IMG/VR virus record: IMGVR_UViG_3300045988_090117
Coordinates: 4,812-68,811 of that record
Reading direction: 5' to 3' (one strand)
DNA length: 64,000 bases
DNA from: a virus
The notes beneath the pieces are model-generated. The model was not told the DNA's origin. It searched no databases and worked only from the letters and a program-made list of their open reading frames with translations. This document shows positions 29,811-62,323 of the stretch, one piece after another. The position numbers and the translations under genes are program-made. Every line of letters begins with the position of its first letter. Within the stretch, counting starts at the first letter, position 1.

Positions 29811-29839
29811 ATTATACTACCTCCTATATAATTAATCAA
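29811..29839 (-). promoter_or_regulatory. Canonical sigma-A-type promoter TTGATT-17-TATAAT
   Basis: Minus strand reads TTGATTAATTATATAGGAGGTAGTATAAT, with -35 at 29839-29834 and -10 at 29816-29811. Near-identical to the copies at 52130 and 62295. Confidence 0.65.
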
Positions 29840-29849
29840 GTGTTTTTTG

Positions 29850-29888
29850 AAAAAAAATAAAAAAAAAATCCCACATTTTTATGTGGGA
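29850..29888 (-). terminator. Strong rho-independent terminator
   Basis: Minus strand reads TCCCACAT-AAAA-ATGTGGGA followed by T10AT8. Confidence 0.8.
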
Positions 29889-34066: not shown

Positions 34067-34390
34067 CTATTTTCCTCCCTTTTGTTTTTTTCTTTTTACT
34101 CCATGTTTCTTGATATCTTGTTTTTCCCTTTGGTTGTGTTCTTGTTTCATATATAATATATTATTTAATGTTATTTTACTAAATTCATCTACAAATAATT
34201 TTTTATTTTTCTTACTTATGATAATTCCATTCTCATCTTCATTGATAGCACATACAGTTTCAAAATGTCTAGTGGCAAATCCACGCACATATTTCTCCTC
34301 ACTATACCATGCAAAACAATCTTTATAGGCTTCTGCAAATTGTTTGGCAAATTTCTTAATTTCTCTAGCATCATTTTTTAGTGGTAACAT
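34067..34390 (-). CDS. Hypothetical protein with a basic C-terminal tail
   Basis: ORF track; ends ..KKHGVKRKKQKGGK. Confidence 0.45.
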   Translation of the reverse strand: MLPLKNDAREIKKFAKQFAEAYKDCFAWYSEEKYVRGFATRHFETVCAINEDENGIIISKKNKKLFVDEFSKITLNNILYMKQEHNQREKQDIKKHGVKRKKQKGGK

Positions 34391-44060: not shown

Positions 44061-44768
44061 TTATATTTCTATTCCTTCTCCATACCATCTATATGTACAT
44101 TCTATATCAGTCTTCATTGGTATTTCAAATTTTCCGTCTACTACGTGTACCATAATGTACTCTAATATATCTCTCACCTCTTTGGCATTCTCTTTTGGAC
44201 ATACTCCCAATACTTCATCATGCACCGGTATGATTAATTTATATCCCAACTCTTGTAGTCTTTTATTGTCATGAATTCTTATCATTGCTATCTTTGTCAT
44301 GTCGGCTGCACTACCTTGAATTATACTGTTAACACATTGTCTTTGAGCGTCGGCTATATATCCACCATTATCCACTAATTTATATCCCTCATCCTTGGCC
44401 ATTTGTTTTATTTTTTCTTTTGCCTCCTTACCAAAGGCTCTATTCATTAATTTAAGATATTTGAAGTAAACCTCATCGCTCACCTCTGTAGTGGACCCAC
44501 CAGTAAAATCTAATGGATTAAAGGTATCAGCTAAATTAGGGTTTTCCACTGTTATCTCTATTGGATCTAGTTGCATATTTGGTAATCTTCTTTTTCTACC
44601 CCATGCAGTCTCTACAAAACCATACTCTCTTGCATTCTCTTGAGCAAATTCTACAAACTCTTTTACTCTTGGAAATTGTTTATAAAAGTCATTTATAACC
44701 TGTTGTGCTTCCTCTTTACTGATATTCATCTGCTCGGCTATACTTGTTACACCTCTACCATACATAAT
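44061..44768 (-). CDS. polA: Family A DNA polymerase, exon 3
   Basis: Begins IMYGRGVTSIAEQ (completing motif B, K..LLGIMYG) and contains VHDEV (motif C). The junction follows the intron-terminal G at 44769. Confidence 0.8.
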   Translation of the reverse strand: MMYGRGVTSIAEQMNISKEEAQQVINDFYKQFPRVKEFVEFAQENAREYGFVETAWGRKRRLPNMQLDPIEITVENPNLADTFNPLDFTGGSTTEVSDEVYFKYLKLMNRAFGKEAKEKIKQMAKDEGYKLVDNGGYIADAQRQCVNSIIQGSAADMTKIAMIRIHDNKRLQELGYKLIIPVHDEVLGVCPKENAKEVRDILEYIMVHVVDGKFEIPMKTDIECTYRWYGEGIEI

Positions 44769-45823
44769 CAGTTTATACCGCCCCTTTCGGGGTACTTTAA
44801 CACTTGTTATGCCAAGTCGGCTTAGACTATATCATCCCTCTTACGAGGGGAGCGCTTCGTATATCGTACCAATAGATACACTACTCCATAAAGGATAGTC
44901 GTTACACTTCTTCCCAATGGTAGCCGTATGCTCTTATATTTCTTTTCATACTCTCTTTTATTTGAGTATTACAACTTTGTGACGTTTTAGTTTTACATAA
45001 ACCTTGTGCAACTAACCATTTCCATGCCTCAGTATAACTACTAAATGTTTTATCAAGTTCTATAAGTTTTACCGGTTTACGACATTTACTTATTCTACCA
45101 GTATTACATTTACTTATAATATCTTTTGTTTCTTGTGTATGGTGTTTACCATAAAATGCATTATCTTTACCAGTATATTTACCTTGTCTAGCTTTACTTA
45201 GCGCTAATTTATGTTCCGGTGATTTTGCTACTCCTTTTAACTTAGATGCTCTTTGTTGTATGAAAAGTTGTCTATCAGTATCAGATAATGTACTCCAAAA
45301 TTGTCTACTGGCTTGAGACATTTTTAGTTTATCTTCATCCGTATGTTTATAACCAGGTACGCCAGCTCCACCTGGAGTCATATTATAACCATCTTTATAA
45401 CTATTAAATATTGATATATAATATACTTCTCTCTCATTTAATTTGTCTATTGAGCATTCCTCTAATAAATACATATGAAATTTATCAACACCATATTTAA
45501 GTAGTGCATTATGAAAATGTGTACCGTTATTTATATCAGAACTAGTATGTTCATACCATCTTTGTTTTAATGATGTACTTGTTTGTCCTACATATACTTT
45601 ATGATTAATATCGTCAATTACAATATAAATATATCCCATAATCTCACCCCCTTCACGGCTATCATTGTTGGTTAGCACGGTCTAACCATATGAGATATAA
45701 AATTATATTGGTTTATATATAATATTATAGCACACTTAGGCTTTAACCGTTAGCATAAAATAAAAAATTTTATACACCCCTGGTAGGGTTCACTTTCTTT
45801 TATTTGGGCTATACTTGTGGTTT
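44769..45823 (-). mobile_element. Group I intron 2 of polA (1055 nt) carrying a GIY-YIG endonuclease ORF
   Basis: The upstream exon ends in U (GGT at 45826-45824) and the intron ends in G (44769). GC-rich structured ends include a CCCCGAAAGGGG tetraloop hairpin and GATATAGTCTAAGCC, which resembles the group I S element. Confidence 0.75.
44902..45639 (-). CDS. GIY-YIG homing endonuclease (intron-encoded)
   Basis: MGYIYIVIDDINHKVYVGQT...N..Y gives a GIY-YIG core. NUMOD-like repeats (HK.ALSKA.QGK) follow. SD GAAGGGGGTGAG upstream. Confidence 0.8.
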   Translation of the reverse strand: MGYIYIVIDDINHKVYVGQTSTSLKQRWYEHTSSDINNGTHFHNALLKYGVDKFHMYLLEECSIDKLNEREVYYISIFNSYKDGYNMTPGGAGVPGYKHTDEDKLKMSQASRQFWSTLSDTDRQLFIQQRASKLKGVAKSPEHKLALSKARQGKYTGKDNAFYGKHHTQETKDIISKCNTGRISKCRKPVKLIELDKTFSSYTEAWKWLVAQGLCKTKTSQSCNTQIKESMKRNIRAYGYHWEEV

Positions 45824-46153
45824 ACCCAATAATATAGGCTTAACGGAGCTTCTACGTTGTTTTCCTTCTGGGTTAACTGTACCGTCAGGTCTAAACTCCT
45901 TACATTCTTCATATGGTTGATTGTACAATTTACTTGCTATCGTGGCATATAGGTCCTTTCCATCTAAATACGCTTGTATCATATGTTTATCGCCACTCAT
46001 ATGTGCTAAACATCTCGGCTCCTGCTGCGAAAAATCTCCACCTATTATTACATTGCCTTCTCCTGCAATAAACATTTGTCTTATATCATGTCCAGCATCT
46101 ATTACAGTCCCATCACTTAATTTCTTTGTTTTACTGGGTATATTTTGTAAATT
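45824..46153 (-). CDS. polA: Family A DNA polymerase, exon 2
   Basis: NLQNIPSK...GGDFSQQEPRCLAH (motif A, DYSQIELR-like) ...QRRSSVKPILLG. 330 nt, in frame with exons 1 and 3. Confidence 0.8.
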
Positions 46154-46882
46154 CACATTGTTAGCGTAGAGGCTCTTTATCCTCTACCTCTTATGGTTCG
46201 TATTCCCATAAGGTCAGACTATATCTCAAACTTATAAAAAGCGACCTGTCTCTTTATCTCGACGATTATTTAAATCGGTACTATGATATTTTTCTTGATG
46301 TTCTGCACGTGTAGTCAAAACTAAATTTTCTATTCGATTATCCAACTTATTCCCATTCTTATGGTGAACTATCTCATCCGATGTTAACTTACGTCCTAAA
46401 TAATCTTCCATAACTTTACGATGTACAAAATATCTATTATTCAACTCTGAAACAACTAAATAACCATCGTATAAATAAACACGTGGTTTTCGTCCTTCTC
46501 CACGTCTTTTAAGTTGTAATCGACTAGCTTTATGCAGAATACTACCCTCACTGCGATTTAAATATTCACTACATTGTTTAAGTCCTAATTTCTCATAATT
46601 TTTAACAAGCCATTCTAATTCCGTTTTTGTCCATTGTTTTCTCATATACATTACCTCCTCCATTTACATAATAGTAACATATATGGAATATTTTGTAAAC
46701 ACTTTTTATAAGTCCAGGGGCGCTCGTGGATGGGTTATTGGTGTGCTCCTCACCATCTAGTCGTTAGACTTTCACGGTACATTTTTACACTTCCCGTGCT
46801 TAGTACGGTATTAGCATCGCAGCCTTCACCGTTTCACCCCTGTATGCATCTATCATATCACTATGATAGCGCCCAATTATTT
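46154..46882 (-). mobile_element. Group I intron 1 of polA (729 nt) carrying an HNH endonuclease ORF
   Basis: Exon 1 ends ..AAT CCT (U at 46883) and the intron ends GTG (G at 46154). A GC-rich core at 46664-46882 and GATATAGTCTGACC near the 3' end resemble the group I S element. Confidence 0.75.
46232..46663 (-). CDS. HNH homing endonuclease (intron-encoded)
   Basis: [34 protein letters not shown]. The probable start MRKQW at 46645 follows the SD GGAGGAGG. Confidence 0.8.
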
Positions 46883-48199
46883 AGGATTACTACTACTAAA
46901 ACGTCCTGTCTTTGCGCCATACTGGTTGAAGTTCGCGTGTAACTTACCAGTTCTTTTGCTTATATGGTCAGGAATGGCATCAATATAAGTACTTAATAGT
47001 TTACTCATACCTCTATACTCTAATATACTATTCACTAATGGGTGGTTTAATTGTTTCAGTTGTTCTTCTCCCACGCTACGTTGACCTTTTGGTGGCTCTA
47101 ATTTTAAGACATCATAGAATAATATTACTAACTGTTGATTACTTCCTATATTAATTTTCACATCTCCAAATTCACTTATTTTGCCATACTTGTCTGGATG
47201 CTTAACTCGTAGGTCATTAAATGCGCCCTGCTTATCCAGCTTCTCTACTTCGGTATTAAATTCATTAAGAGCATTATCCATATACGTAGTATATCGTTGT
47301 TTTAACTCTTGAGCTAAGTTTGTATCTATATCTACTCCTTGTGCCTCCATATCGAATACTACTTCTATTAATGGCATTTCTATATTCCTGAATACATCTG
47401 CCACCCTTTCAAGTCCTTTTTTATAACAGTATTTTCCATCTCTGTCCAAATACTCACGTTGAAATTCATATAATTCAAAAGTCATTATAGGGTCAAAGGC
47501 TGCGTACATATAGCCAACATCTGGAGGTATTTTATTGAACTCAATGCCATTAAATAATTCACCAAATTTACCTACCTCAGCACTTTCACCAGTACAATAC
47601 TTTTGCCATAATACTTTTAAGCCATGTGGTTCATTTTCATTAAGTAAATACCCTCCAATTAATGTGTCCCAGTATGGTACTATTTTTACTCCTACCATCC
47701 AATATAATATATGCATATCGAACTTAGCGTTATGTAGCACAAATCTAATATTATTATCTGACCAAGATTGTATTAATTTCCTAACTACTTCAATAGATAC
47801 ATTACTTTGTAATTCCGTATTTGTCATATAACTTATATGTCCTACTGGAATATAAATACCTTTTTCATATGGTGTATAAAGACATATACCAGCTACTTTT
47901 CCGTCTATTCTATCAAGTCCGTTTGTCTCAGTATCTAGTGCTACTATGCCATTGGCTACTACTTTTTTATCGAACTGTTTTAACCTATCTTCACTAGTTA
48001 CTAATTCCATTCTATCTAGTCTATCAGCAAATATTTTAGTAGACATCATCTTTGCATATTCTACTTTATCCTTCATTGTCTTAGGTACTATTGATGTTAC
48101 TGGCGCTCTTTTATTTTTCTTTTTACTCAACACTTCTAACGCTTTTTTATTCGCCTCTTTGTTATTACAACGACTAAATGTATCTTTAAACAAACTCAT
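46883..48199 (-). CDS. polA: Family A DNA polymerase, exon 1 (3'-5' exonuclease domain plus N-terminal polymerase domain)
   Basis: Exo motifs VALDTETNGLD and LHNAKFDMHIL. Ends ..GAKTGRFSSSNP, which continues as NLQNIP in exon 2. Confidence 0.85.
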
Positions 48200-51453: not shown

Positions 51454-51482
51454 AGTATAGTAAGACTTTATTTTTTACTAAC
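51454..51482 (-). promoter_or_regulatory. Phage promoter motif GTTAGT-17-TATACT (upstream of nrdJ)
   Basis: Minus strand reads GTTAGTAAAAAATAAAGTCTTACTATACT. The -10 is embedded in a 13-bp perfect inverted repeat (51438-51468). Confidence 0.55.
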
Positions 51483-52080
51483 TCAATAAATAATTTAATT
51501 TCTTTTGAAGTGCACGTCTAATTCCAACAACACCTGCAGTACTAACTCCAATTTCCCTTGCCATGTGAGATTGTTGTAAGTCACACATATGGTCAAGTGC
51601 TACCATACAGTATTGTAATTGTTTTTCAGATAAATCTTCCTTATGTACTAAGTCAGATAATTCAACTTTGTCATACTCATCTTCAACACTTGCTTCCTCC
51701 CATCTATCTTCAGTTGTTTCATAACAACTCATTGGAGTACATTGGTCACCGTTGTTGGCTTTACGTTTATTACTCGCATTACTTTGTGTTAGAGTTCTAA
51801 GAGCATTCTTGATATAAACACATATCATAGAAGTAAGTTTACCACTAGTACTCTTTTCAGCATCAAAGTTTTCAAAACATTTCCATATTTGTTCTAATAT
51901 AACACTTGTAACTTCATCATCACTTACACCAACATATTTTTTACTCACTTGATAGAATAAACTTTTATTTGTTTCAAATACATATGCAATAACTTCATCA
52001 TGAAAACCTGCTTGATAATCTTTTATTAATTCCTCATCAGTGTGTTTTAAACCATAAACTTTTACAACATCGTTAAACAT
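51478..52080 (-). CDS. Phage sigma-70-family factor (ECF-like size)
   Basis: Region 2-like DEVTSVILEQIWKCFENFD and region 4 HTH MAREIGVSTAGVVGIRRALQKKL. Directly downstream of the sigma-A-type promoter at 52130-52158. Confidence 0.6.
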   Translation of the reverse strand: MFNDVVKVYGLKHTDEELIKDYQAGFHDEVIAYVFETNKSLFYQVSKKYVGVSDDEVTSVILEQIWKCFENFDAEKSTSGKLTSMICVYIKNALRTLTQSNASNKRKANNGDQCTPMSCYETTEDRWEEASVEDEYDKVELSDLVHKEDLSEKQLQYCMVALDHMCDLQQSHMAREIGVSTAGVVGIRRALQKKLNYLLS

Positions 52081-53526: not shown

Positions 53527-53625
53527 AAAAAAATAAAAACCCCTGACACTGTCCGCTCCAATGCCAGGGTAAAAAAAGGGGAGTTATATTATGAGTAGAA
53601 GAATGTGCCTCCACATTTCCTCTAC
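53527..53625 (-). ncRNA. Candidate small RNA A (~97 nt): promoter motif, 5' hairpin, AUAUAACUCCCC, terminator
   Basis: Starts ~7 nt after the TATACT at 53637-53632. 5' hairpin is GUAGAGGAAAUGUG-GAGG-CACAUUCUUCUAC. Terminator is CCCUGGCA..UGUCAGGG plus U5AU7; it contains a G-U pair, which on the plus strand would be an A-C mismatch. No ORF with usable SD spacing. Confidence 0.4.
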
Positions 53626-53631
53626 ATATAT

Positions 53632-53660
53632 AGTATAGAAAAAAATGCCATTTTACTAAC
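53632..53660 (-). promoter_or_regulatory. Phage promoter motif GTTAGT-17-TATACT (drives candidate sRNA A)
   Basis: Minus strand reads GTTAGTAAAATGGCATTTTTTTCTATACT. Confidence 0.55.
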
Positions 53661-54955
53661 TAAAAAACATCAGTAACATCAATTATTTTATTATTATTTC
53701 TAAGTGGTAATTGTGGCTCAATCTCAGCTCCATCTTCCAATTGTTCAGTCACAAATGAGAAAATACCGTTGTCTATGTCCCACACATATAATAATTGCTT
53801 ATTATTTTCTCCATATCTATTCTTAGTTATTTTAAGACTCAATCCCGCTTTAGTCTGCACAAGAGATATAACCCTACTACTATTCTGAGCAATACCATCA
53901 CTCTCACCTATATCTGCTAGTTCGGGATTCTCAGGTTTGTCGATATCAGCTTTATTTCTATTTGCTTGTGCATCTACTATAATTGGGATGCTGAATTCTA
54001 TACTGATATTAAATAAATCTTGAGCAATATGTGTGTACTGAGTTCTTGTTTGGTCTCCCTTTCCTCGTCTCTCATCTTCCATTAATGATATTTGGTCTAT
54101 GCCAACTATGTCTGGTTTATACTCTTTTATAAGTGCTCTTAGTTTACTAACTGTTAACATTTTACCTCCAAAGTCTACTGGTGTTACTACTATATATGGA
54201 GGTAATTCTTTATTAGTTTCCAGATCATTAATGTATTGCTTATAATCTCCATCTGCTATTGTACCTCTCATTAATTGAGAGTTTGTGTAGTTCATACCTA
54301 ATGTATCATTTCTATATGCCACTTGTAATACACCCATCTCACCACTGTAATGGAGTACTTTTTTATATTGTCTATTTGCCTCTGTTAGAAACTTTTGTAA
54401 CAGCCAAGATTTACCTTGGTTTACTCTACCAACTATAGTTACTAGTTCTTCACCTGGTAGCCATCCATTAAGTATCTTGTCTAATTCAGGTAAGCCACTA
54501 CCAATTCCTAACATACCACCTTTAGCACGTTTATTCTCTAAGTCCTTTATTTTCTCATCAACCATATTGTTAATATTTACTCCATTACTCTGAACAGTTT
54601 GGTCAAGTAAACGTTGTGCCCTTGTGACTATATGTTGTAAGCCATCAAAAGCATTCTGTTCTAATACATCACCACTAGCTTGAAATAGTGCCACTCCTTG
54701 GTCAAATAGATAGTTTTCTTTTAGATTATAGATAATATATTTTAGTGGCTCTAATACTTCAACAACATCAAAGTCAGGAAATTTTCCCATGAATGTTTCC
54801 CAGTCAGGTACTTTTCCATAAGTTCTAAAGTGAGTACATATAAAATCAAACTCATCTTGATAGTCTTTAAAATACTCTTTTGTTATCCCTTGACTCGTAT
54901 ACGCATCTAAATTATTATTATTTAATATATCATTAATTGCTTGTAGTTGTACCAT
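53660..54955 (-). CDS. dnaB: Replicative DNA helicase (DnaB family)
   Basis: GIGSGLPELDKILNGWLPGEELVTIVGRVNQGKSWLL (Walker A), DIVGIDQISLM and QANR motifs. Confidence 0.85.
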   Translation of the reverse strand: MVQLQAINDILNNNNLDAYTSQGITKEYFKDYQDEFDFICTHFRTYGKVPDWETFMGKFPDFDVVEVLEPLKYIIYNLKENYLFDQGVALFQASGDVLEQNAFDGLQHIVTRAQRLLDQTVQSNGVNINNMVDEKIKDLENKRAKGGMLGIGSGLPELDKILNGWLPGEELVTIVGRVNQGKSWLLQKFLTEANRQYKKVLHYSGEMGVLQVAYRNDTLGMNYTNSQLMRGTIADGDYKQYINDLETNKELPPYIVVTPVDFGGKMLTVSKLRALIKEYKPDIVGIDQISLMEDERRGKGDQTRTQYTHIAQDLFNISIEFSIPIIVDAQANRNKADIDKPENPELADIGESDGIAQNSSRVISLVQTKAGLSLKITKNRYGENNKQLLYVWDIDNGIFSFVTEQLEDGAEIEPQLPLRNNNKIIDVTDVF

Positions 54956-55668
54956 TATATTCTCACCCCTTTTGGTTTCCTTTGTGGCTTGTTAATAAAT
55001 TCTACTATTGTACTTGTATCTAATATTCTACTCGCCAACCTACCACCAATATTATCATCTAACTGTTCATCAATAACATTACTAGTAAATATATTAGCTT
55101 TATTATTTACTATACGTGGGTTAATAAGACTAAATAATATTTGGTGGTCATATTCTTTTAACTTAGTTACTCCTATGTCGTCCCAAATTACAAGATCTAC
55201 TGTTGGTATTAATTTTTCCATTTCTTCTAGTCTCAAGTCAGGTCGTTTTATGGCATTTCTTTTAGCCATTAAGAACTCATCTACATTGATGAATAGACCT
55301 CTACAACGTGTGCCATTGCCATTCCAAATATTACTAAAATATTTACTCATTAACTTTATTGCCCACGTAGTTTTACCATTACCAAAATATGGGCTATATA
55401 AATATAAGTTACATCCATCTTGTACAAATTCATTGATATTATTCTTTACACCATTAAGATACTCGTACTTTTTAAGATCATCACCCGCACTCAACTTCAA
55501 GTCCTCAGGTTGCTGCTTATTCGGTGGAATATTTGCCAAGTTAACCAAATAATAATATTGAAAATATACACTACAACTACAATTGCAGTCCTTTGTATTA
55601 TACATAGGACAGTTAGTCCTAAACCAACATTTATCTTTATTAAATTTAAATTCTTTTACATCATACAT
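54955..55668 (-). CDS. DnaC/IstB-like AAA+ helicase loader with a Cys-rich N-terminus
   Basis: LYLYSPYFGNGKTTWAI (Walker A), LVIWDDIG (Walker B), and N-terminal CWFRTNCP..CNCSC. Confidence 0.6.
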   Translation of the reverse strand: MYDVKEFKFNKDKCWFRTNCPMYNTKDCNCSCSVYFQYYYLVNLANIPPNKQQPEDLKLSAGDDLKKYEYLNGVKNNINEFVQDGCNLYLYSPYFGNGKTTWAIKLMSKYFSNIWNGNGTRCRGLFINVDEFLMAKRNAIKRPDLRLEEMEKLIPTVDLVIWDDIGVTKLKEYDHQILFSLINPRIVNNKANIFTSNVIDEQLDDNIGGRLASRILDTSTIVEFINKPQRKPKGVRI

Positions 55669-55691: not shown

Positions 55692-55720
55692 AGTATAGTA
55701 AAAAATCTACTTTTACTAAC
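55692..55720 (-). promoter_or_regulatory. Phage promoter motif GTTAGT-17-TATACT
   Basis: Minus strand reads GTTAGTAAAAGTAGATTTTTTACTATACT. Confidence 0.55.
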
Positions 55721-55723
55721 AAG

Positions 55724-55821
55724 AAAAAACCCCCGATACCAAAGGGGGGGGGTAGATATCGGGGTAAAAAATAAATATTAAGGGGTTATATATGTAAGGG
55801 GCTGAATACCATATTCCTTAC
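55724..55821 (-). ncRNA. Candidate small RNA B (~98 nt), paralogue of A
   Basis: Starts after the TATACT at 55833-55828. 5' hairpin is GUAAGG..CCUUAC, followed by AUAUAACCCCUU. Terminator is CCCCGAUAUC-(loop containing C9)-GGUAUCGGGG plus U6. The U-G wobble is only possible in the minus-strand RNA. Confidence 0.4.
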
Positions 55822-55827
55822 ATATAT

Positions 55828-55856
55828 AGTATAGAAAAAATCCCCATTTTGCTAAC
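55828..55856 (-). promoter_or_regulatory. Phage promoter motif GTTAGC-17-TATACT (drives candidate sRNA B)
   Basis: Minus strand reads GTTAGCAAAATGGGGATTTTTTCTATACT. Confidence 0.55.
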
Positions 55857-55858
55857 TA

Positions 55859-56614
55859 CTAAAATAATTTTCTTTGTCTACTAATCGTCTCTAATCTATC
55901 TTTAGTTATATTAAAATATTTTTTATCTAACTCAATTCCGATAAACCTTCTATTTAAATTCAAACAAGCCACTCCGGTACTACCTGAACCCATTGTAAAG
56001 TCAAGAATTACATCACCTTCATTTGTATATGTTTTAACTAAATATTCAAGCAATGCGACTGGCTTTTGTGTTGGATGATATCTATTTTTAACATCTCTAT
56101 TAAATTTAATAATTGAAACAGGGTATCTTTTGCCATCATTCTTAGATATATAGCCATCAATCGTCCCTACGCCTCTATATACACCACGCACACGAGGTCT
56201 TTTTACTACATATGGTTCCCCCTCTGTAAATTGTGGATTATATGTGGGTAACTTTTTATAAAACACCAATATATTCTCATGTTTCTTTAGTGGCATTCTT
56301 TTAGCATTAAGCCCACCTGTTCCCTGTTCTTTTTCCCATATCCATTCATATCTAAGCATCTCTAAATTACTAACTCCAAGAACTTTATCAAATGGAGTTT
56401 GAGCAAATAAACATATAACTGCATTATCTTTTATTAATTTATTTAGTCTCTCCCACATACCATCTAATGGGATTATTGAATCCCATTTACAGGCAGTTGT
56501 CCCGTATGGGGGATCTGTAATTATAGCATCGACTTTTACACCCCCCTTAATCAACTTATCCATTATTTCCAGGCAATCACCATTATATAATTTATAGTTT
56601 TCATTATTATTCAT
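55859..56614 (-). CDS. Beta-class DNA methyltransferase (DPPY), paralogue 2
   Basis: DAIITDPPYGTTACKWDSIIPLD, HPTQKPVALLEYLVK and DFTMGSGSTGVAC. The ends are near-identical to 43145..43984 while the central ~100 aa differ. Confidence 0.8.
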   Translation of the reverse strand: MNNNENYKLYNGDCLEIMDKLIKGGVKVDAIITDPPYGTTACKWDSIIPLDGMWERLNKLIKDNAVICLFAQTPFDKVLGVSNLEMLRYEWIWEKEQGTGGLNAKRMPLKKHENILVFYKKLPTYNPQFTEGEPYVVKRPRVRGVYRGVGTIDGYISKNDGKRYPVSIIKFNRDVKNRYHPTQKPVALLEYLVKTYTNEGDVILDFTMGSGSTGVACLNLNRRFIGIELDKKYFNITKDRLETISRQRKLF

Positions 56615-57599: not shown

Positions 57600-57775
57600 A
57601 AAAAAAATTCCAGTGGGTTACCAAGCCACTGGAATGTATATGGGGATTGTTAATAATTTCTTATTAGTTGGTTATATGAAGTTAATCACCTACTCTCTTA
57701 TTATACACTATTGGGTCATATAAGAAAATAATAAAAATTAAAATAATATAAAAATAATTTAATAAAATAAGTTAC
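57600..57775 (-). ncRNA. Candidate non-coding RNA C (~175 nt)
   Basis: The promoter motif at 57782-57810 is followed by ~140 nt of AT-rich sequence with no SD or ORF. Then come AAUCCCCAUAUA and the terminator AUUCCAGUGG-..-CCACUGGAAU plus U9. Confidence 0.35.
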
Positions 57776-57781
57776 ATATAT

Positions 57782-57810
57782 AATATAGAAATTTTGGTCA
57801 ATTTACTAAC
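57782..57810 (-). promoter_or_regulatory. Phage promoter motif GTTAGT-17-TATATT (drives candidate ncRNA C)
   Basis: Minus strand reads GTTAGTAAATTGACCAAAATTTCTATATT. Confidence 0.5.
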
Positions 57811-59076: not shown

Positions 59077-59099
59077 ATTATGCAACTTTGTTGCATAAT
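59077..59099 (-). terminator. Perfect 10-bp leader hairpin (possible attenuator)
   Basis: Minus strand reads ATTATGCAAC-AAA-GTTGCATAAT followed by TCTTTTC. Lies between the promoter at 59161-59189 and the start at 59049. Confidence 0.3.
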
Positions 59100-59160
59100 A
59101 ATGTCCCACCGACCGATTCTTTATTTATTTTCAGTCTAACTAATTTTATTATCTAAATAT

Positions 59161-59189
59161 AATATAGGAAAAATCGCCGTTTTACTAAC
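59161..59189 (-). promoter_or_regulatory. Phage promoter motif GTTAGT-17-TATATT
   Basis: Minus strand reads GTTAGTAAAACGGCGATTTTTCCTATATT. Confidence 0.5.
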
Positions 59190-59243
59190 TACAAATTTAA
59201 AAAAGTTAAAAAAATTTTCACCTTAAAAAAGGTTTTTTTATAT

Positions 59244-59272
59244 AGTATAGAAATTTTTCCCGTTTTACTAAC
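59244..59272 (-). promoter_or_regulatory. Phage promoter motif GTTAGT-17-TATACT
   Basis: Minus strand reads GTTAGTAAAACGGGAAAAATTTCTATACT; in tandem with the copy 83 nt downstream. Confidence 0.5.
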
Positions 59273-62294: not shown

Positions 62295-62323
62295 ATTATA
62301 ACACTACTTACATAATTAATCAA
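62295..62323 (-). promoter_or_regulatory. Canonical sigma-A-type promoter TTGATT-17-TATAAT
   Basis: Minus strand reads TTGATTAATTATGTAAGTAGTGTTATAAT, with -35 at 62323-62318 and -10 at 62300-62295. Confidence 0.65.

What the first reader, a model, noticed from the sequence alone, without database searches (positions are those of the whole stretch)
55721..55856. Candidate small RNA B: a paralogue of A with the same architecture and a C9 homopolymer in the terminator loop
Aligned from the -10 box, A and B share TATACTATATATGTA, a 5' hairpin (here GUAAGG..CCUUAC), the block AUAUAAC(U)CCCCUU and UUUUUUACCC leading into the terminator. The hairpin sequences themselves differ, so structure rather than sequence is conserved. 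The unit lies between a methyltransferase gene and the DnaC-like gene and is followed at once by another promoter (55692-55720). The terminator stem CCCCGAUAUC/GGUAUCGGGG has a U-G wobble that is only possible in the minus-strand RNA. Its loop carries nine consecutive C (G9 on the plus strand, 55744-55752). That run is conspicuous in such AT-rich DNA and is a potential slippage-prone tract. The only ORF is 8 codons (MVFSPLHI) with SD spacing of ~2 nt.
Basis: partly seen in the sequence, partly recalled or inferred. Interest (0 to 1): 0.75.

Follow-up and report, generated by a model that had tools for sequence, protein, structure and literature searches.

The report
Phage small RNA with C-rich motifs
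An uncultivated human-gut phage carries a self-contained ~98-nt non-coding RNA gene (own promoter, 5' hairpin, three CCCCUU motifs, own terminator) just upstream of its helicase-loader gene; it is conserved in related phages and is built like the C-rich small RNAs that Gram-positive bacteria use to block ribosome-binding sites.

Summary
55721-55856 (minus strand) holds a copy of the phage's own promoter consensus, a 5' hairpin that starts at the predicted +1, about 29 unpaired G-free bases, and a terminator whose 14-nt loop carries C9. A second promoter for the DnaC-like gene follows at once.

One correction: TATACTATATATGTA is the general phage promoter (about 12 copies), so it is not evidence that A and B are related. 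They are still related. A covariance model built from B homologues alone finds A at E 2.5e-4.

B and A sit at the same positions in about 30 human-gut phage contigs. They are also present in a relative whose helicase is only 72% identical. There the stems are entirely different, but the loop UACCCCCUUU and the unpaired ACCCCUU are kept. Every stem substitution preserves pairing on this strand, and no ORF is conserved.

B holds 3 of the 5 CCCCUU hexamers on the 64-kb sense strand. This is the LhrC/RsaE design: redundant C-rich motifs that pair with Shine-Dalgarno sequences. B matches no Rfam family.

No target could be identified, and expression is untested. C9 is one length variant (C4-C9) of a conserved C-rich loop.

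Verdict: a new member of a known kind, of moderate interest.

The parts
55828..55856 (-). Promoter P1 of the B unit: -35 (G)TTAGCA at 55855-55850 and -10 TATACT at 55833-55828. The conserved extension ATATATGTA runs to 55819. It starts 3 nt after the methyltransferase stop codon (55861-55859).
   Evidence: It matches the phage promoter consensus GTTAG(T/C)AAA-N13-TTTTTCTATACTATATATGTA, found about 12 times in front of genes. It is conserved in all relatives.
55724..55821 (-). Predicted sRNA B transcript, about 98 nt, from the G of GUA (predicted +1, 7 nt after the -10) to the end of the U tract.
   Evidence: Fold; homologue alignment; covariance model. The transcription start and 3' end are inferred, not measured.
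55794..55821 (-). 5'-terminal hairpin. GUAAGG (55821-55816) pairs with CCUUAC (55799-55794). The loop is variable. CCCCUU motif no. 1 lies at 55801-55796, on the 3' side.
   Evidence: All 6 pairs are kept in 16 variants; 2 pairs vary only G-C to G-U. In A and in L148 the helix sequence differs but the helix is kept (5 of 6 pairs with changes on both sides).
55765..55793 (-). Unpaired, G-free region AUAUAUAACCCCUUAAUAUUUAUUUUUUA, with CCCCUU motif no. 2 at 55785-55780. This is the candidate seed.
   Evidence: (mean pairwise identity 0.845, against 0.75 at DnaC codon position 3). AAC(C)CCUUA is kept in all relatives, and ACACCCCUUUUU in L148.
55724..55764 (-). Intrinsic terminator. Stem CCCCGAUAUC (55764-55755) pairs with GGUAUCGGGG (55740-55731). 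The 14-nt loop is UACCCCCCCCCUUU (55754-55741). G plus U6 follows at 55730-55724.
   Evidence: All 10 pairs are kept, with one compensatory pair (C-G to U-A in 8 variants) and two pairs that vary only by wobble. The stem is entirely different in L148, yet the loop UACCCCCUUUU is conserved.
55744..55752 (-). C9 run (G9 on the plus strand) in the terminator loop, including CCCCUU motif no. 3 (55747-55742). The run length differs among relatives.
   Evidence: Run lengths: C9 in the window; C8 in L003 and L136; C6 in most; C5 in L008, L011, L012, L015 and L148; C4 in L013 and L144; CCCCGC in L017. It is the only C-run of 6 or more on the sense strand of the window.
55692..55720 (-). Promoter P2 for the DnaC-like/DnaB operon (-35 GTTAGTAAA at 55720-55712, -10 TATACT at 55697-55692). 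It starts right after the terminator's U tract.
   Evidence: mean pairwise identity 0.876. The DnaC-like ATG is at 55668.
53530..53660 (-). Paralogue A: promoter (-35 at 53660-53652, -10 at 53637-53632) and an sRNA of about 96 nt (53625->53530). It has a 5' hairpin, the unpaired CUCAUAAUAUAACUCCCCUUUUUUUA, and a terminator at 53569-53541 with the invariant loop GGAGCGGAC.
   Evidence: It lies immediately downstream of the DnaB helicase gene, so A and B flank the loader-helicase operon.
53660..55668 (-). The flanked operon: DnaC-like loader (54955-55668) and DnaB-type helicase (53660-54955). This is context and a possible target, not part of the RNA.
   Evidence: Pfam hits IstB_IS21/Bac_DnaA and DnaB_C. 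The helicase SD is AAAAGGGGUGAG, one of only 5 translation start regions with AAGGGG.

Best explanation
B is a free-standing gene for a non-coding RNA of about 98 nt in an uncultivated ~70-kb Firmicutes-type phage from the human gut.

A standard phage promoter starts transcription at GUA. The first 28 nt fold at once into a 5'-terminal hairpin, which is inferred to protect the RNA from 5'-end-dependent decay. A strong intrinsic terminator ends the RNA 3 nt before the next promoter's -35 element.

The functional surface is proposed to be three copies of CCCCUU: one on the 3' side of the 5' hairpin, one in the 29-nt unpaired G-free stretch, and one in the unusually large terminator loop. These would pair with G-rich Shine-Dalgarno regions (AAGGGG) of phage or host mRNAs and block translation initiation. 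This is how the redundant CUCCC..UUUU motifs of LhrC and the C-rich motifs of RsaE/RoxS work.

A is a sibling with one such motif (CUCCCCUUUU). B and A bracket the helicase-loader/helicase operon.

Shown: the gene architecture, its conservation, structural covariation, the absence of coding potential, and the motif enrichment.
Inferred: transcription, RNA stability, base-pairing as the mode of action, and the identity of the targets.
For: Promoter family.

Fold.

Synteny: B and A are at the same positions in 17 IMG/VR contigs and about 15 gut-metagenome contigs.

Structure within the B family: 255 of 255 stem cells are paired, against 55% or less when the partners are slid. There is one compensatory pair and four pairs that change only by wobble, which is possible only on this strand.

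Structure across B, A and L148: 431 of 431 cells are paired, and 13 of 16 pairs show changes on both sides (this alignment was fitted to the model).

Distant relative: L148 (helicase 72% identical) has a different promoter variant and entirely different stems. It keeps the +1 hairpin, the unpaired ACACCCCUUUUU, and the terminator loop UUACCCCCUUUU (38.1 bits, E 3e-4).

Rate of change: the RNA body diverges almost as fast as codon position 3 (0.80-0.845 against 0.75 mean pairwise identity). The preserved helices and motifs are therefore not simply a result of short divergence time.

Coding: no ORF is conserved on either strand.

Motif enrichment: 3 of the 5 CCCCUU on the 64-kb sense strand are in B, one more is in A, and about 1.2 are expected in the whole window.

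Precedent: LhrC has CUCCC..UUUU in loop A, in the single-stranded stretch and in the terminator loop, and all three bind the SD of lapB (PMC4132741).

Fold stability: the MFE structure takes 41% of the ensemble and equals the centroid, so no competing antiterminator fold is evident.
Against: - There is no expression data.
- No target stands out. B and A pair about equally well with many phage translation start regions. The adjacent downstream ones rank only 42nd-62nd of 77. The helicase start region ranks 15th for B and 10th for A of 80.
- The host is unknown, so host targets could not be examined.
- Primary-sequence constraint on the unpaired region is modest (0.845).
- CCCCUU motif no. 1 is partly buried in the stem.
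- In some relatives the motifs are degenerate (CCCUU, CUCCUU, or CCCCCAGG in the loop).
- Terminators and promoters are conserved for their own sake, so part of the covariation would be expected even without a trans-acting function.
- Similar promoter-short RNA-terminator-promoter units exist nearby (C, and a roughly 30-nt unit D). This hints that the arrangement itself may matter, or may arise easily by recombination between promoter copies.
Confidence: 0.55

Rival explanations
1. Transcription-unit boundary with no RNA function. The terminator exists to stop the upstream methyltransferase transcript, and P1 is a spare or recombination-derived copy of the highly repeated promoter. The short RNA would then be a by-product, for example the empty slot of a variable gene cassette.
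For: The promoter consensus is repeated about 14 times and gene content around it is mosaic. L009, for example, has an extra gene with its own promoter between the helicase gene and A. A minimal promoter -> ~30 nt -> weak hairpin+U7 -> promoter unit exists at about 59272-59205. The B body evolves nearly as fast as codon position 3.
Against: The 5' hairpin has no role in a boundary, yet it is kept with pairing-preserving changes, and with a new sequence in A and in L148. The loop UACCCCCUUU and the unpaired ACCCCUU survive complete replacement of the terminator stem in L148. A loop of 9-14 nt is larger than terminators usually carry (my own knowledge) and should not be conserved for termination alone. 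The CCCCUU enrichment is extreme. No relative has a gene in the slot.
Confidence: 0.17
2. Cis-acting control unit. Transcription from P1 normally stops at the terminator, as lambda pR' makes 6S RNA up to tR'. A phage antiterminator or RNA-binding protein that recognises the conserved loop or C-rich stretch lets RNA polymerase read through into the loader-helicase operon at a certain stage.
For: Promoter-short RNA-terminator units sit directly upstream of genes at three or four places (A, B, C, D). Each unit's terminator loop motif is conserved while its stem changes: B UACCCCCUUU, A GAGCGG, C YUGGUAA. That pattern would also suit protein recognition.
Against: A full consensus promoter (P2) follows the terminator immediately, so the operon does not depend on read-through. 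No alternative antiterminator fold is evident. A lies downstream of the operon's last gene. No antiterminator gene was identified; only some of the window's ORFs were scanned.
Confidence: 0.1
3. Protein- or defence-directed decoy RNA. The abundant C/U-rich RNA titrates a host RNA-binding protein or ribonuclease, or imitates a host RNA (for example a host C-rich sRNA or an antitoxin RNA), rather than pairing with mRNAs.
For: The conserved single-stranded C/U-rich motifs and conserved loops could equally be protein-binding sites. No specific mRNA target emerged.
Against: There are no tandem repeats or other features of known decoys such as ToxI-like arrays or CRISPR-repeat mimics (sequence inspection; Rfam finds nothing). 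The motif is the exact complement of a Shine-Dalgarno core, for which base-pairing is the established mechanism (PMC4132741).
Confidence: 0.1
4. mRNA for a micro-peptide (MVFSPLHI on the minus strand, or a small ORF on the plus strand).
For: An AUG at position 10 of the RNA, preceded by AAGGA, is present in the window and in many relatives.
Against: The ORF is 8, 31, more than 33, 1 or 0 codons long in close relatives. Its frame is not kept, the AUG is absent in L008/L010, and it is AUG-UAA in L148. The SD spacing is only 2 nt. The plus-strand ORF is AUG-UAA.
Confidence: 0.02

Closest known systems
LhrC1-5 sibling sRNAs of Listeria monocytogenes (Rfam LhrC; Sievers et al. 2014, PMC4132741)
   Same: About 100 nt. 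[quoted passage not shown] The same CU-rich motif (CUCCC..UUUU) is repeated in the first hairpin, in the single-stranded stretch and in the terminator loop. G-poor. Several sibling copies per genome. Acts by pairing with the SD of target mRNAs.
   Different: No detectable sequence or structure homology (no Rfam hit even at E<=10). B is phage-encoded rather than chromosomal. It is driven by a phage promoter rather than by LisRK. Its motif is CCCCUU with a homopolymeric C-run of variable length. Its targets are unknown.
RsaE/RoxS of Staphylococcus/Bacillus and the UCCC-motif sRNAs of low-GC Gram-positives (Geissmann et al. 2009, PMC2790875)
   Same: Duplicated C-rich motifs (CCCCUUUG-like) in unpaired regions and loops, complementary to G-rich SDs. 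Hfq-independent design with a terminator.
   Different: Not a member (no covariance-model match). Different overall fold. Phage origin. No known metabolic regulon.
Lambda PreS/LPR1 and other phage-encoded trans-acting sRNAs (bioRxiv 10.1101/2024.10.31.621285; review PMC12197685)
   Same: A small RNA encoded by a phage and linked to replication. PreS acts on host dnaN; B and A bracket the phage loader-helicase operon.
   Different: PreS was found in a Gram-negative, Hfq-based system and activates translation. There is no sequence relation. For B the link to replication is positional only. The one lead is a co-variation between A's seed and the helicase SD.
Lambda pR'-6S RNA-tR' unit (Q antitermination)
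   Same: A promoter followed by a short terminated transcript directly upstream of genes.
   Different: In lambda the downstream genes depend on read-through. Here a full promoter follows the terminator, and no Q-like factor or site was identified.
Phage antisense/immunity RNAs (P1/P7 c4, P22 sar, lambda oop)
   Same: Small phage RNAs that occlude ribosome-binding sites.
   Different: Those RNAs are cis-encoded or processed from the operon they control and are perfectly complementary to their targets. B has no perfectly complementary partner in the window.

Membership tests
Stand-alone bacterial/phage sRNA gene (generic kind) | Own promoter | tested here: met
   Full match to the phage promoter consensus (-35 TTAGCA, 16 nt, -10 TATACT plus ATATATGTA). 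The consensus has about 12 copies in front of genes, against 2.5 chance matches expected. Promoter activity itself was not measured.
Stand-alone bacterial/phage sRNA gene (generic kind) | Own intrinsic terminator on the same strand | tested here: met
   10-bp G+C-rich stem followed by G and U6. There is no U tract on the opposite strand.
Stand-alone bacterial/phage sRNA gene (generic kind) | No conserved ORF | tested here: met
   ORF length and frame vary (8, 31, 1 or 0 codons), and the AUG is absent in some relatives.
Stand-alone bacterial/phage sRNA gene (generic kind) | Structure conserved through compensatory or strand-specific changes | tested here: met
   100% paired, 1 compensatory pair and 4 wobble-only pairs; 13 of 16 pairs with changes on both sides once A and L148 are included (model-fitted alignment). 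The L148 stems are entirely different.
Stand-alone bacterial/phage sRNA gene (generic kind) | A discrete stable transcript is detected | not testable with these tools
   No transcriptome data are available for this uncultivated phage.
C-rich (UCCC-type) anti-Shine-Dalgarno sRNAs of low-GC Gram-positives | C-rich motif(s) exposed in loops or unpaired regions | tested here: met
   CCCCUU at 55801, 55785 and 55747 (hairpin 3' side, unpaired stretch, terminator loop). These are 3 of the 5 occurrences in 64 kb. The motifs are kept in relatives and in L148.
C-rich (UCCC-type) anti-Shine-Dalgarno sRNAs of low-GC Gram-positives | Demonstrable pairing with the SD of a specific target mRNA | tested here: inconclusive
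   Predicted duplexes form with many start regions and none is an outlier. Five phage start regions carry AAGGGG. A's seed co-varies once with the helicase SD, but B's does not.
LhrC (Rfam) | Match to the family covariance model | tested here: not met
   No hit at gathering score and none at E<=10 on the 251-nt region.
RsaE/RoxS (Rfam) | Match to the family covariance model | tested here: not met
   No hit.
Riboswitch or attenuator leader | An alternative antiterminator fold, with the downstream gene dependent on read-through | tested here: not met
   The MFE structure equals the centroid and takes 41% of the ensemble. An independent consensus promoter lies between the terminator and the gene.
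Deletion scar or pseudogene | Homologues carry a longer intact ORF at the same place | tested here: not met
   About 21 distinct B variants and about 14 A variants were examined, and none has such an ORF.
Phase-variable homopolymer (contingency tract) | Tract length polymorphic between or within populations | tested here: inconclusive
   Length differs between contigs, C4 to C9. Read-level heterogeneity could not be tested. The tract lies in an RNA loop, not in a coding frame or a promoter spacer.

The most novel reading that the evidence does not exclude
B, A and probably a third unit C form a phage-borne set of sibling anti-Shine-Dalgarno sRNAs. The phage would use them to time or balance translation of its own replication proteins (the helicase SD AAAAGGGG is a candidate) and/or to silence host mRNAs with G-rich ribosome-binding sites. 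The indel-prone C-run in the terminator loop would act as an evolvable seed whose length retunes the target range. This would be the first UCCC-type regulatory RNA system described in a phage of Gram-positive bacteria.
Probability: 0.2. Interest if true: 0.7.

Novelty: new member of a known kind. Interest (0 to 1): 0.5.

Why it matters
In the library searched here, the described phage-encoded regulatory RNAs come mostly from E. coli and Salmonella (pro)phages (review PMC12197685). For lytic or uncultivated phages of Gram-positive gut bacteria I found almost nothing. A 2025 Listeria-phage transcriptome paper argued against sRNAs in that phage because it saw no terminators and no UCCC motifs (PMC12282133).

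Here both hallmarks are present, conserved and duplicated in a clade of human-gut phages. If the RNAs are expressed, they give a compact, testable example of a phage using the Firmicutes C-rich anti-SD strategy. They also give a ready covariance model for finding more such genes in gut viromes.

The practical value is modest until a host and a target are known.

Tried and rejected
1. The sRNA's unpaired region as an antisense copy of the start region of the gene just downstream. Its reverse complement reads SD-spacer-AUG, which suggested this. Rejected: the DnaC-like start region and the start region downstream of A rank 42nd-62nd of 77 in cofold energy.

2. Genome-wide and per-relative duplex scans for a conserved target. 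Recurrent hits are ordinary start regions (primase, RNR and others), and none is specific.

3. A small plus-strand ORF behind the apparent SD+ATG. It is 15 aa in A but AUG-UAA in B and in most relatives. Rejected.

4. Known RNA families. Rfam gave nothing at gathering score on the whole window. At E<=10 on both loci it gave only sub-threshold matches to unrelated terminator-bearing sRNAs.

5. GenBank phages. There is no nucleotide match. The nearest helicases (about 43%) are in Bacillus phage Flasso and Clostridium phage phiCTP1. phiCTP1 has gaps of 180-200 nt at the equivalent places but no recognisable A/B units.

6. Motif-pattern scan of IMG/VR for B-like cores outside the clade. The six extra hits were chance matches.

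7. Host identification. A promoter-pattern scan of GTDB genomes gave 31 single chance hits, none with the bipartite promoter. tBLASTn with the endolysin and the portal protein was uninformative.

8. More relatives of the distant L148 lineage. Its promoter pattern and its helicase found only the same 17 contigs, or contigs for which the replication module is not held.

9. A weak model hit in L054 lies antisense to that phage's genes, so it is taken as chance.

Full report
WHAT THE WINDOW IS

The window is a 32% G+C phage genome segment with every gene on the minus strand. Around the finding lie:
- an N6/N4 DNA methyltransferase (55859-56614);
- a DnaC/IstB-like loader (54955-55668);
- a DnaB-type helicase (53660-54955);
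- a Toprim primase-like gene, and a class of ribonucleotide reductase.

There is no nucleotide match in GenBank phages. The nearest helicases (about 43%) are in Bacillus phage Flasso and Clostridium phage phiCTP1. The portal protein is 38% identical to that of Streptococcus phage Dp-1. Close relatives are 17 IMG/VR contigs and a further set of roughly 70-kb contigs from human-gut metagenomes. The host is unknown.

THE OBSERVATION

The exact coordinates are in the parts list.

The RNA predicted from the G of GUA to the U tract (55821->55724, 98 nt) folds as follows:
- a 5'-terminal hairpin, GUAAGG/CCUUAC;
- 29 unpaired, G-free nucleotides;
- a 10-bp terminator hairpin with a 14-nt loop, UAC9UUU.

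The fold energy is -25.4 kcal/mol (z = -2.06). The MFE structure equals the centroid and takes 41% of the ensemble. A (53625->53530) has the same layout at -34.6 kcal/mol (z = -4.2).

One correction. The shared block TATACTATATATGTA is the phage's general promoter. It occurs 5 times exactly and about 8 more times with 1-2 mismatches, against 2.5 expected. Nearly all copies have a GTTAG(T/C)AAA -35 element 13 nt upstream and a gene just downstream. It therefore shows that B has a genuine promoter. It does not show that A and B are related.

ARE A AND B PARALOGUES?

Yes, on three lines of evidence, none of which uses the upstream promoter.
- The RNA bodies align better than 2000 of 2000 dinucleotide shuffles (z = 4.0). 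The unpaired block alone is not significant (173 of 2000).
- The two terminator stems can be aligned, with compensatory differences at 5 of 10 pairs.
- A covariance model built only from 16 B homologues finds A in the window at 38.6 bits, E 2.5e-4. It finds nothing else above noise.

CONSERVATION AND STRUCTURE

B and A occupy the same positions in every relative that covers the region. B lies before the DnaC-like gene and A lies after the helicase gene. About 21 distinct B sequences and about 14 distinct A sequences were recovered.

Within the B family, all 255 stem cells form standard pairs. When the 3' partners are slid by 1-3 columns, 55% or fewer do. One pair shows a full compensatory change (C-G to U-A in 8 variants). 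Four pairs change only G-C/A-U to G-U, which is pairing-neutral only in the minus-strand RNA.

The RNA body is not simply too young to have diverged. Mean pairwise identity is 0.80 for the hairpins and 0.845 for the unpaired stretch. DnaC codon position 3 is at 0.75, and positions 1 and 2 are at 0.94-0.98.

The most informative relative is L148, a 3.9-kb gut contig whose helicase is 72% identical. It uses a different promoter variant (GTTAACA-N-TATATATTATATGTA). In front of its DnaC-like gene it still carries, in order:
- a promoter;
- GUAAU/AUUAC hairpin at +1;
- the unpaired AUACAUAAUACACCCCUUUUU;
- a terminator, CUCUUGUAGGU/ACCUACAAGAG, with loop UUACCCCCUUUU and U8;
- the next promoter.

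The stem shares essentially nothing with the window's CCCCGAUAUC/GGUAUCGGGG. The C-rich loop and the unpaired ACCCCUU are nevertheless retained (model hit 38.1 bits, E 3e-4).

L148 also has the A equivalent after its helicase gene. The stems are different, the loop keeps GAGCGG, and the seed is UUUCUCCUUUUU.

With A and L148 included, 431 of 431 cells pair and 13 of 16 pairs show changes on both sides. That alignment was fitted to the model, which favours the structure.

NOT CODING

The sense AUG at position 10 yields 8 aa in the window. It yields 31 aa in L001, more than 33 aa running through the terminator in L003, L011 and L012, and 1 codon in L007. There is no AUG in L008/L010, and L148 has AUG-UAA. 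The apparent SD+AUG on the opposite strand is followed directly by UAA.

THE C-RICH MOTIFS

On the 64-kb sense strand (12% C), CCCCUU occurs five times, with about 1.2 expected. Three occurrences are in B: 55801 on the 3' side of the 5' hairpin, 55785 in the unpaired stretch, and 55747 in the terminator loop. One is in A (53581) and one is elsewhere. C9 is the only C-run of 6 or more on that strand.

In relatives the three sites persist as CCCCUU, CUCCUU or CCCUU. The terminator loop always holds at least four consecutive C, but the run length differs:
- C9 in the window;
- C8 in two contigs;
- C6 in most;
- C5 and C4 in others;
- CCCCGC in one.

What is conserved is a C-rich loop. Its length is indel-prone, as expected for a homopolymer. 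There is no evidence of a switch.

A loop of 9-14 nt is larger than terminators usually carry (my own knowledge), which also points to a function for the loop itself.

MECHANISM

[quoted passage not shown] It is the layout established experimentally for the multicopy sRNA LhrC of Listeria. There CUCCC..UUUU sits in loop A, in the single-stranded stretch and in the terminator loop, and each copy can bind the Shine-Dalgarno region of lapB mRNA (PMC4132741).

More generally it fits the UCCC-motif sRNAs of low-GC Gram-positives such as RsaE, RNAIII, SprD and FsrA (PMC2790875; discussion in PMC4132741).

I therefore infer that B, and A through its CUCCCCUUUU, act by pairing with G-rich SD regions. 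This step is inferred, not shown.

Target searches gave no specific answer.
- Duplex and cofold scans over the whole sense strand, over about 80 start regions, and within each relative's own locus return many ordinary start regions with similar energies.
- My first idea was that each RNA is antisense to the start region of the gene immediately downstream. This is rejected (ranks 42-62 of 77).
- Five phage start regions carry the exact complement AAGGGG: helicase 54955, methyltransferase 58508, a homing endonuclease at 45639, and the genes at 34390 and 29408.

One lead concerns the helicase SD (AAAAGGGGUGAG, and AAGGGGGAGG in L148).
- In L011-L013 and L015 this SD is AAGAGAGG. In the L011-L015 group the A seed has changed from CUCCCCUUUU to CUCCCUUUCUUUU.
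- Cognate duplexes are better than swapped ones by 2.0 and 5.6 kcal/mol.
- This is a single lineage event, and L014 is an exception.
- B's motifs do not follow this change, so it says nothing firm about B.

RIVAL EXPLANATIONS

A pure operon-boundary or recombination relic is the strongest rival. It is helped by the mosaic, promoter-flanked gene cassettes and by a minimal promoter-30 nt-hairpin-promoter unit near 59272-59205. It does not explain the conserved +1 hairpin. It also does not explain the motif retention through complete stem replacement, or the motif enrichment.

A lambda pR'-6S-tR'-like antitermination unit, or a protein-recognised terminator, would fit the unit-specific conserved loops. 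It is undercut by the full promoter that follows each terminator and by the absence of an alternative fold.

A micro-peptide is excluded by the ORF comparison.

A decoy for a protein cannot be excluded.

COMPARISON AND NOVELTY

B matches no Rfam family, either at gathering score or at E<=10. It is therefore not a member of LhrC or RsaE, but it works like them on present evidence.

The phage-encoded sRNAs listed in the review I consulted come mostly from enterobacterial (pro)phages (PMC12197685). Lambda PreS/LPR1, which acts on host dnaN, is the nearest functional theme (bioRxiv 10.1101/2024.10.31.621285).

I file B as a new member of a known kind. Interest is moderate (0.5). It is a clean, conserved, model-ready phage sRNA family, but it has no host, no expression data and no target.

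Noticed in passing
window 57600-57790 (-): A third promoter -> non-coding RNA -> terminator -> promoter unit ('C', about 175 nt), directly upstream of the AntA-like gene. Its 5' part is extremely A+T-rich. It is followed by CAUAUAACCAAC and AACAAUCCCCAUAUA, then the terminator UUCCAGUGG-CUUGGUAAC-CCACUGGAA and a run of U. It is conserved in all relatives with covarying stems (for example CCCAACGG/CCGUUGGG and UUCCGGUGG/CCACCGGAA) and an almost invariant loop, YUGGUAA. A shorter equivalent is in L148 (711-788). The B model does not detect it.
   Followed up: partly
window ~59205-59272 (-): A minimal unit ('D'). A consensus promoter (-35 at 59272, -10 at 59249-59244) is followed by only about 30 nt, AAAAAAACCUUUUUUAAGGUGAAAAUUUUUUU (a 5-bp hairpin plus U7). 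The next promoter follows (-35 at 59189-59181). It may be a decayed or empty cassette, and it bears on the 'boundary relic' rival.
   Followed up: no
window 44061-48199 (-): The family-A DNA polymerase gene is in three pieces (46877-48199, 45809-46156, 44061-44765). Two insertions separate them, each with an endonuclease ORF: HNH at 46232-46663 and a homing endonuclease at 44902-45639. Both are flanked by G+C-rich, structured-looking RNA (46664-46876, 45679-45808, 44766-44901). These look like two self-splicing introns, yet Rfam reports no intron family even at E<=0.1.
   Followed up: partly
window 51478-52080 (-): A 200-aa protein with a weak match to phage RNA polymerase sigma factors (phrog_351, E 6e-8; no Pfam hit). 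It could explain the phage-specific promoter consensus GTTAG(T/C)AAA-N13-TTTTTCTATACTATATATGTA. Its own SD is G-rich (CAGGGGGAAUG).
   Followed up: partly
window 62295-62323 and ~29820-29850 (-): Two promoters of a different, canonical sigma-A type. They share TTGATTAATTAT..N..TATAAT followed by GTTAATAAAAGATAAG. The phage therefore seems to have two promoter classes, possibly host-dependent early promoters and phage-specific ones.
   Followed up: no
window 54958-54975 (-) and loci L011-L015, 3960-4000: The helicase SD AAAAGGGG lies inside the last codons of the DnaC-like gene. It changes to AAGAGAGG in L011-L013 and L015. In the L011-L015 group A's seed changes from CUCCCCUUUU to CUCCCUUUCUUUU. 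Cognate pairs are predicted to be 2-5.6 kcal/mol more stable than swapped ones. L014 is an exception.
   Followed up: partly
window ~59085-59165 (-): The 5' UTR downstream of the promoter at about 59166 contains AAUCGGUCGGUGG followed by a hairpin, AUUAUGCA-ACAAAG-UUGCAUAAU, just before the SD. Both are conserved, with small changes, in the relatives. This may be a cis-regulatory leader.
   Followed up: no
locus L009, 5294-6200: One relative carries an extra gene of about 880 bp between the helicase gene and A. This illustrates cassette-like gain and loss at the repeated promoters.
   Followed up: no
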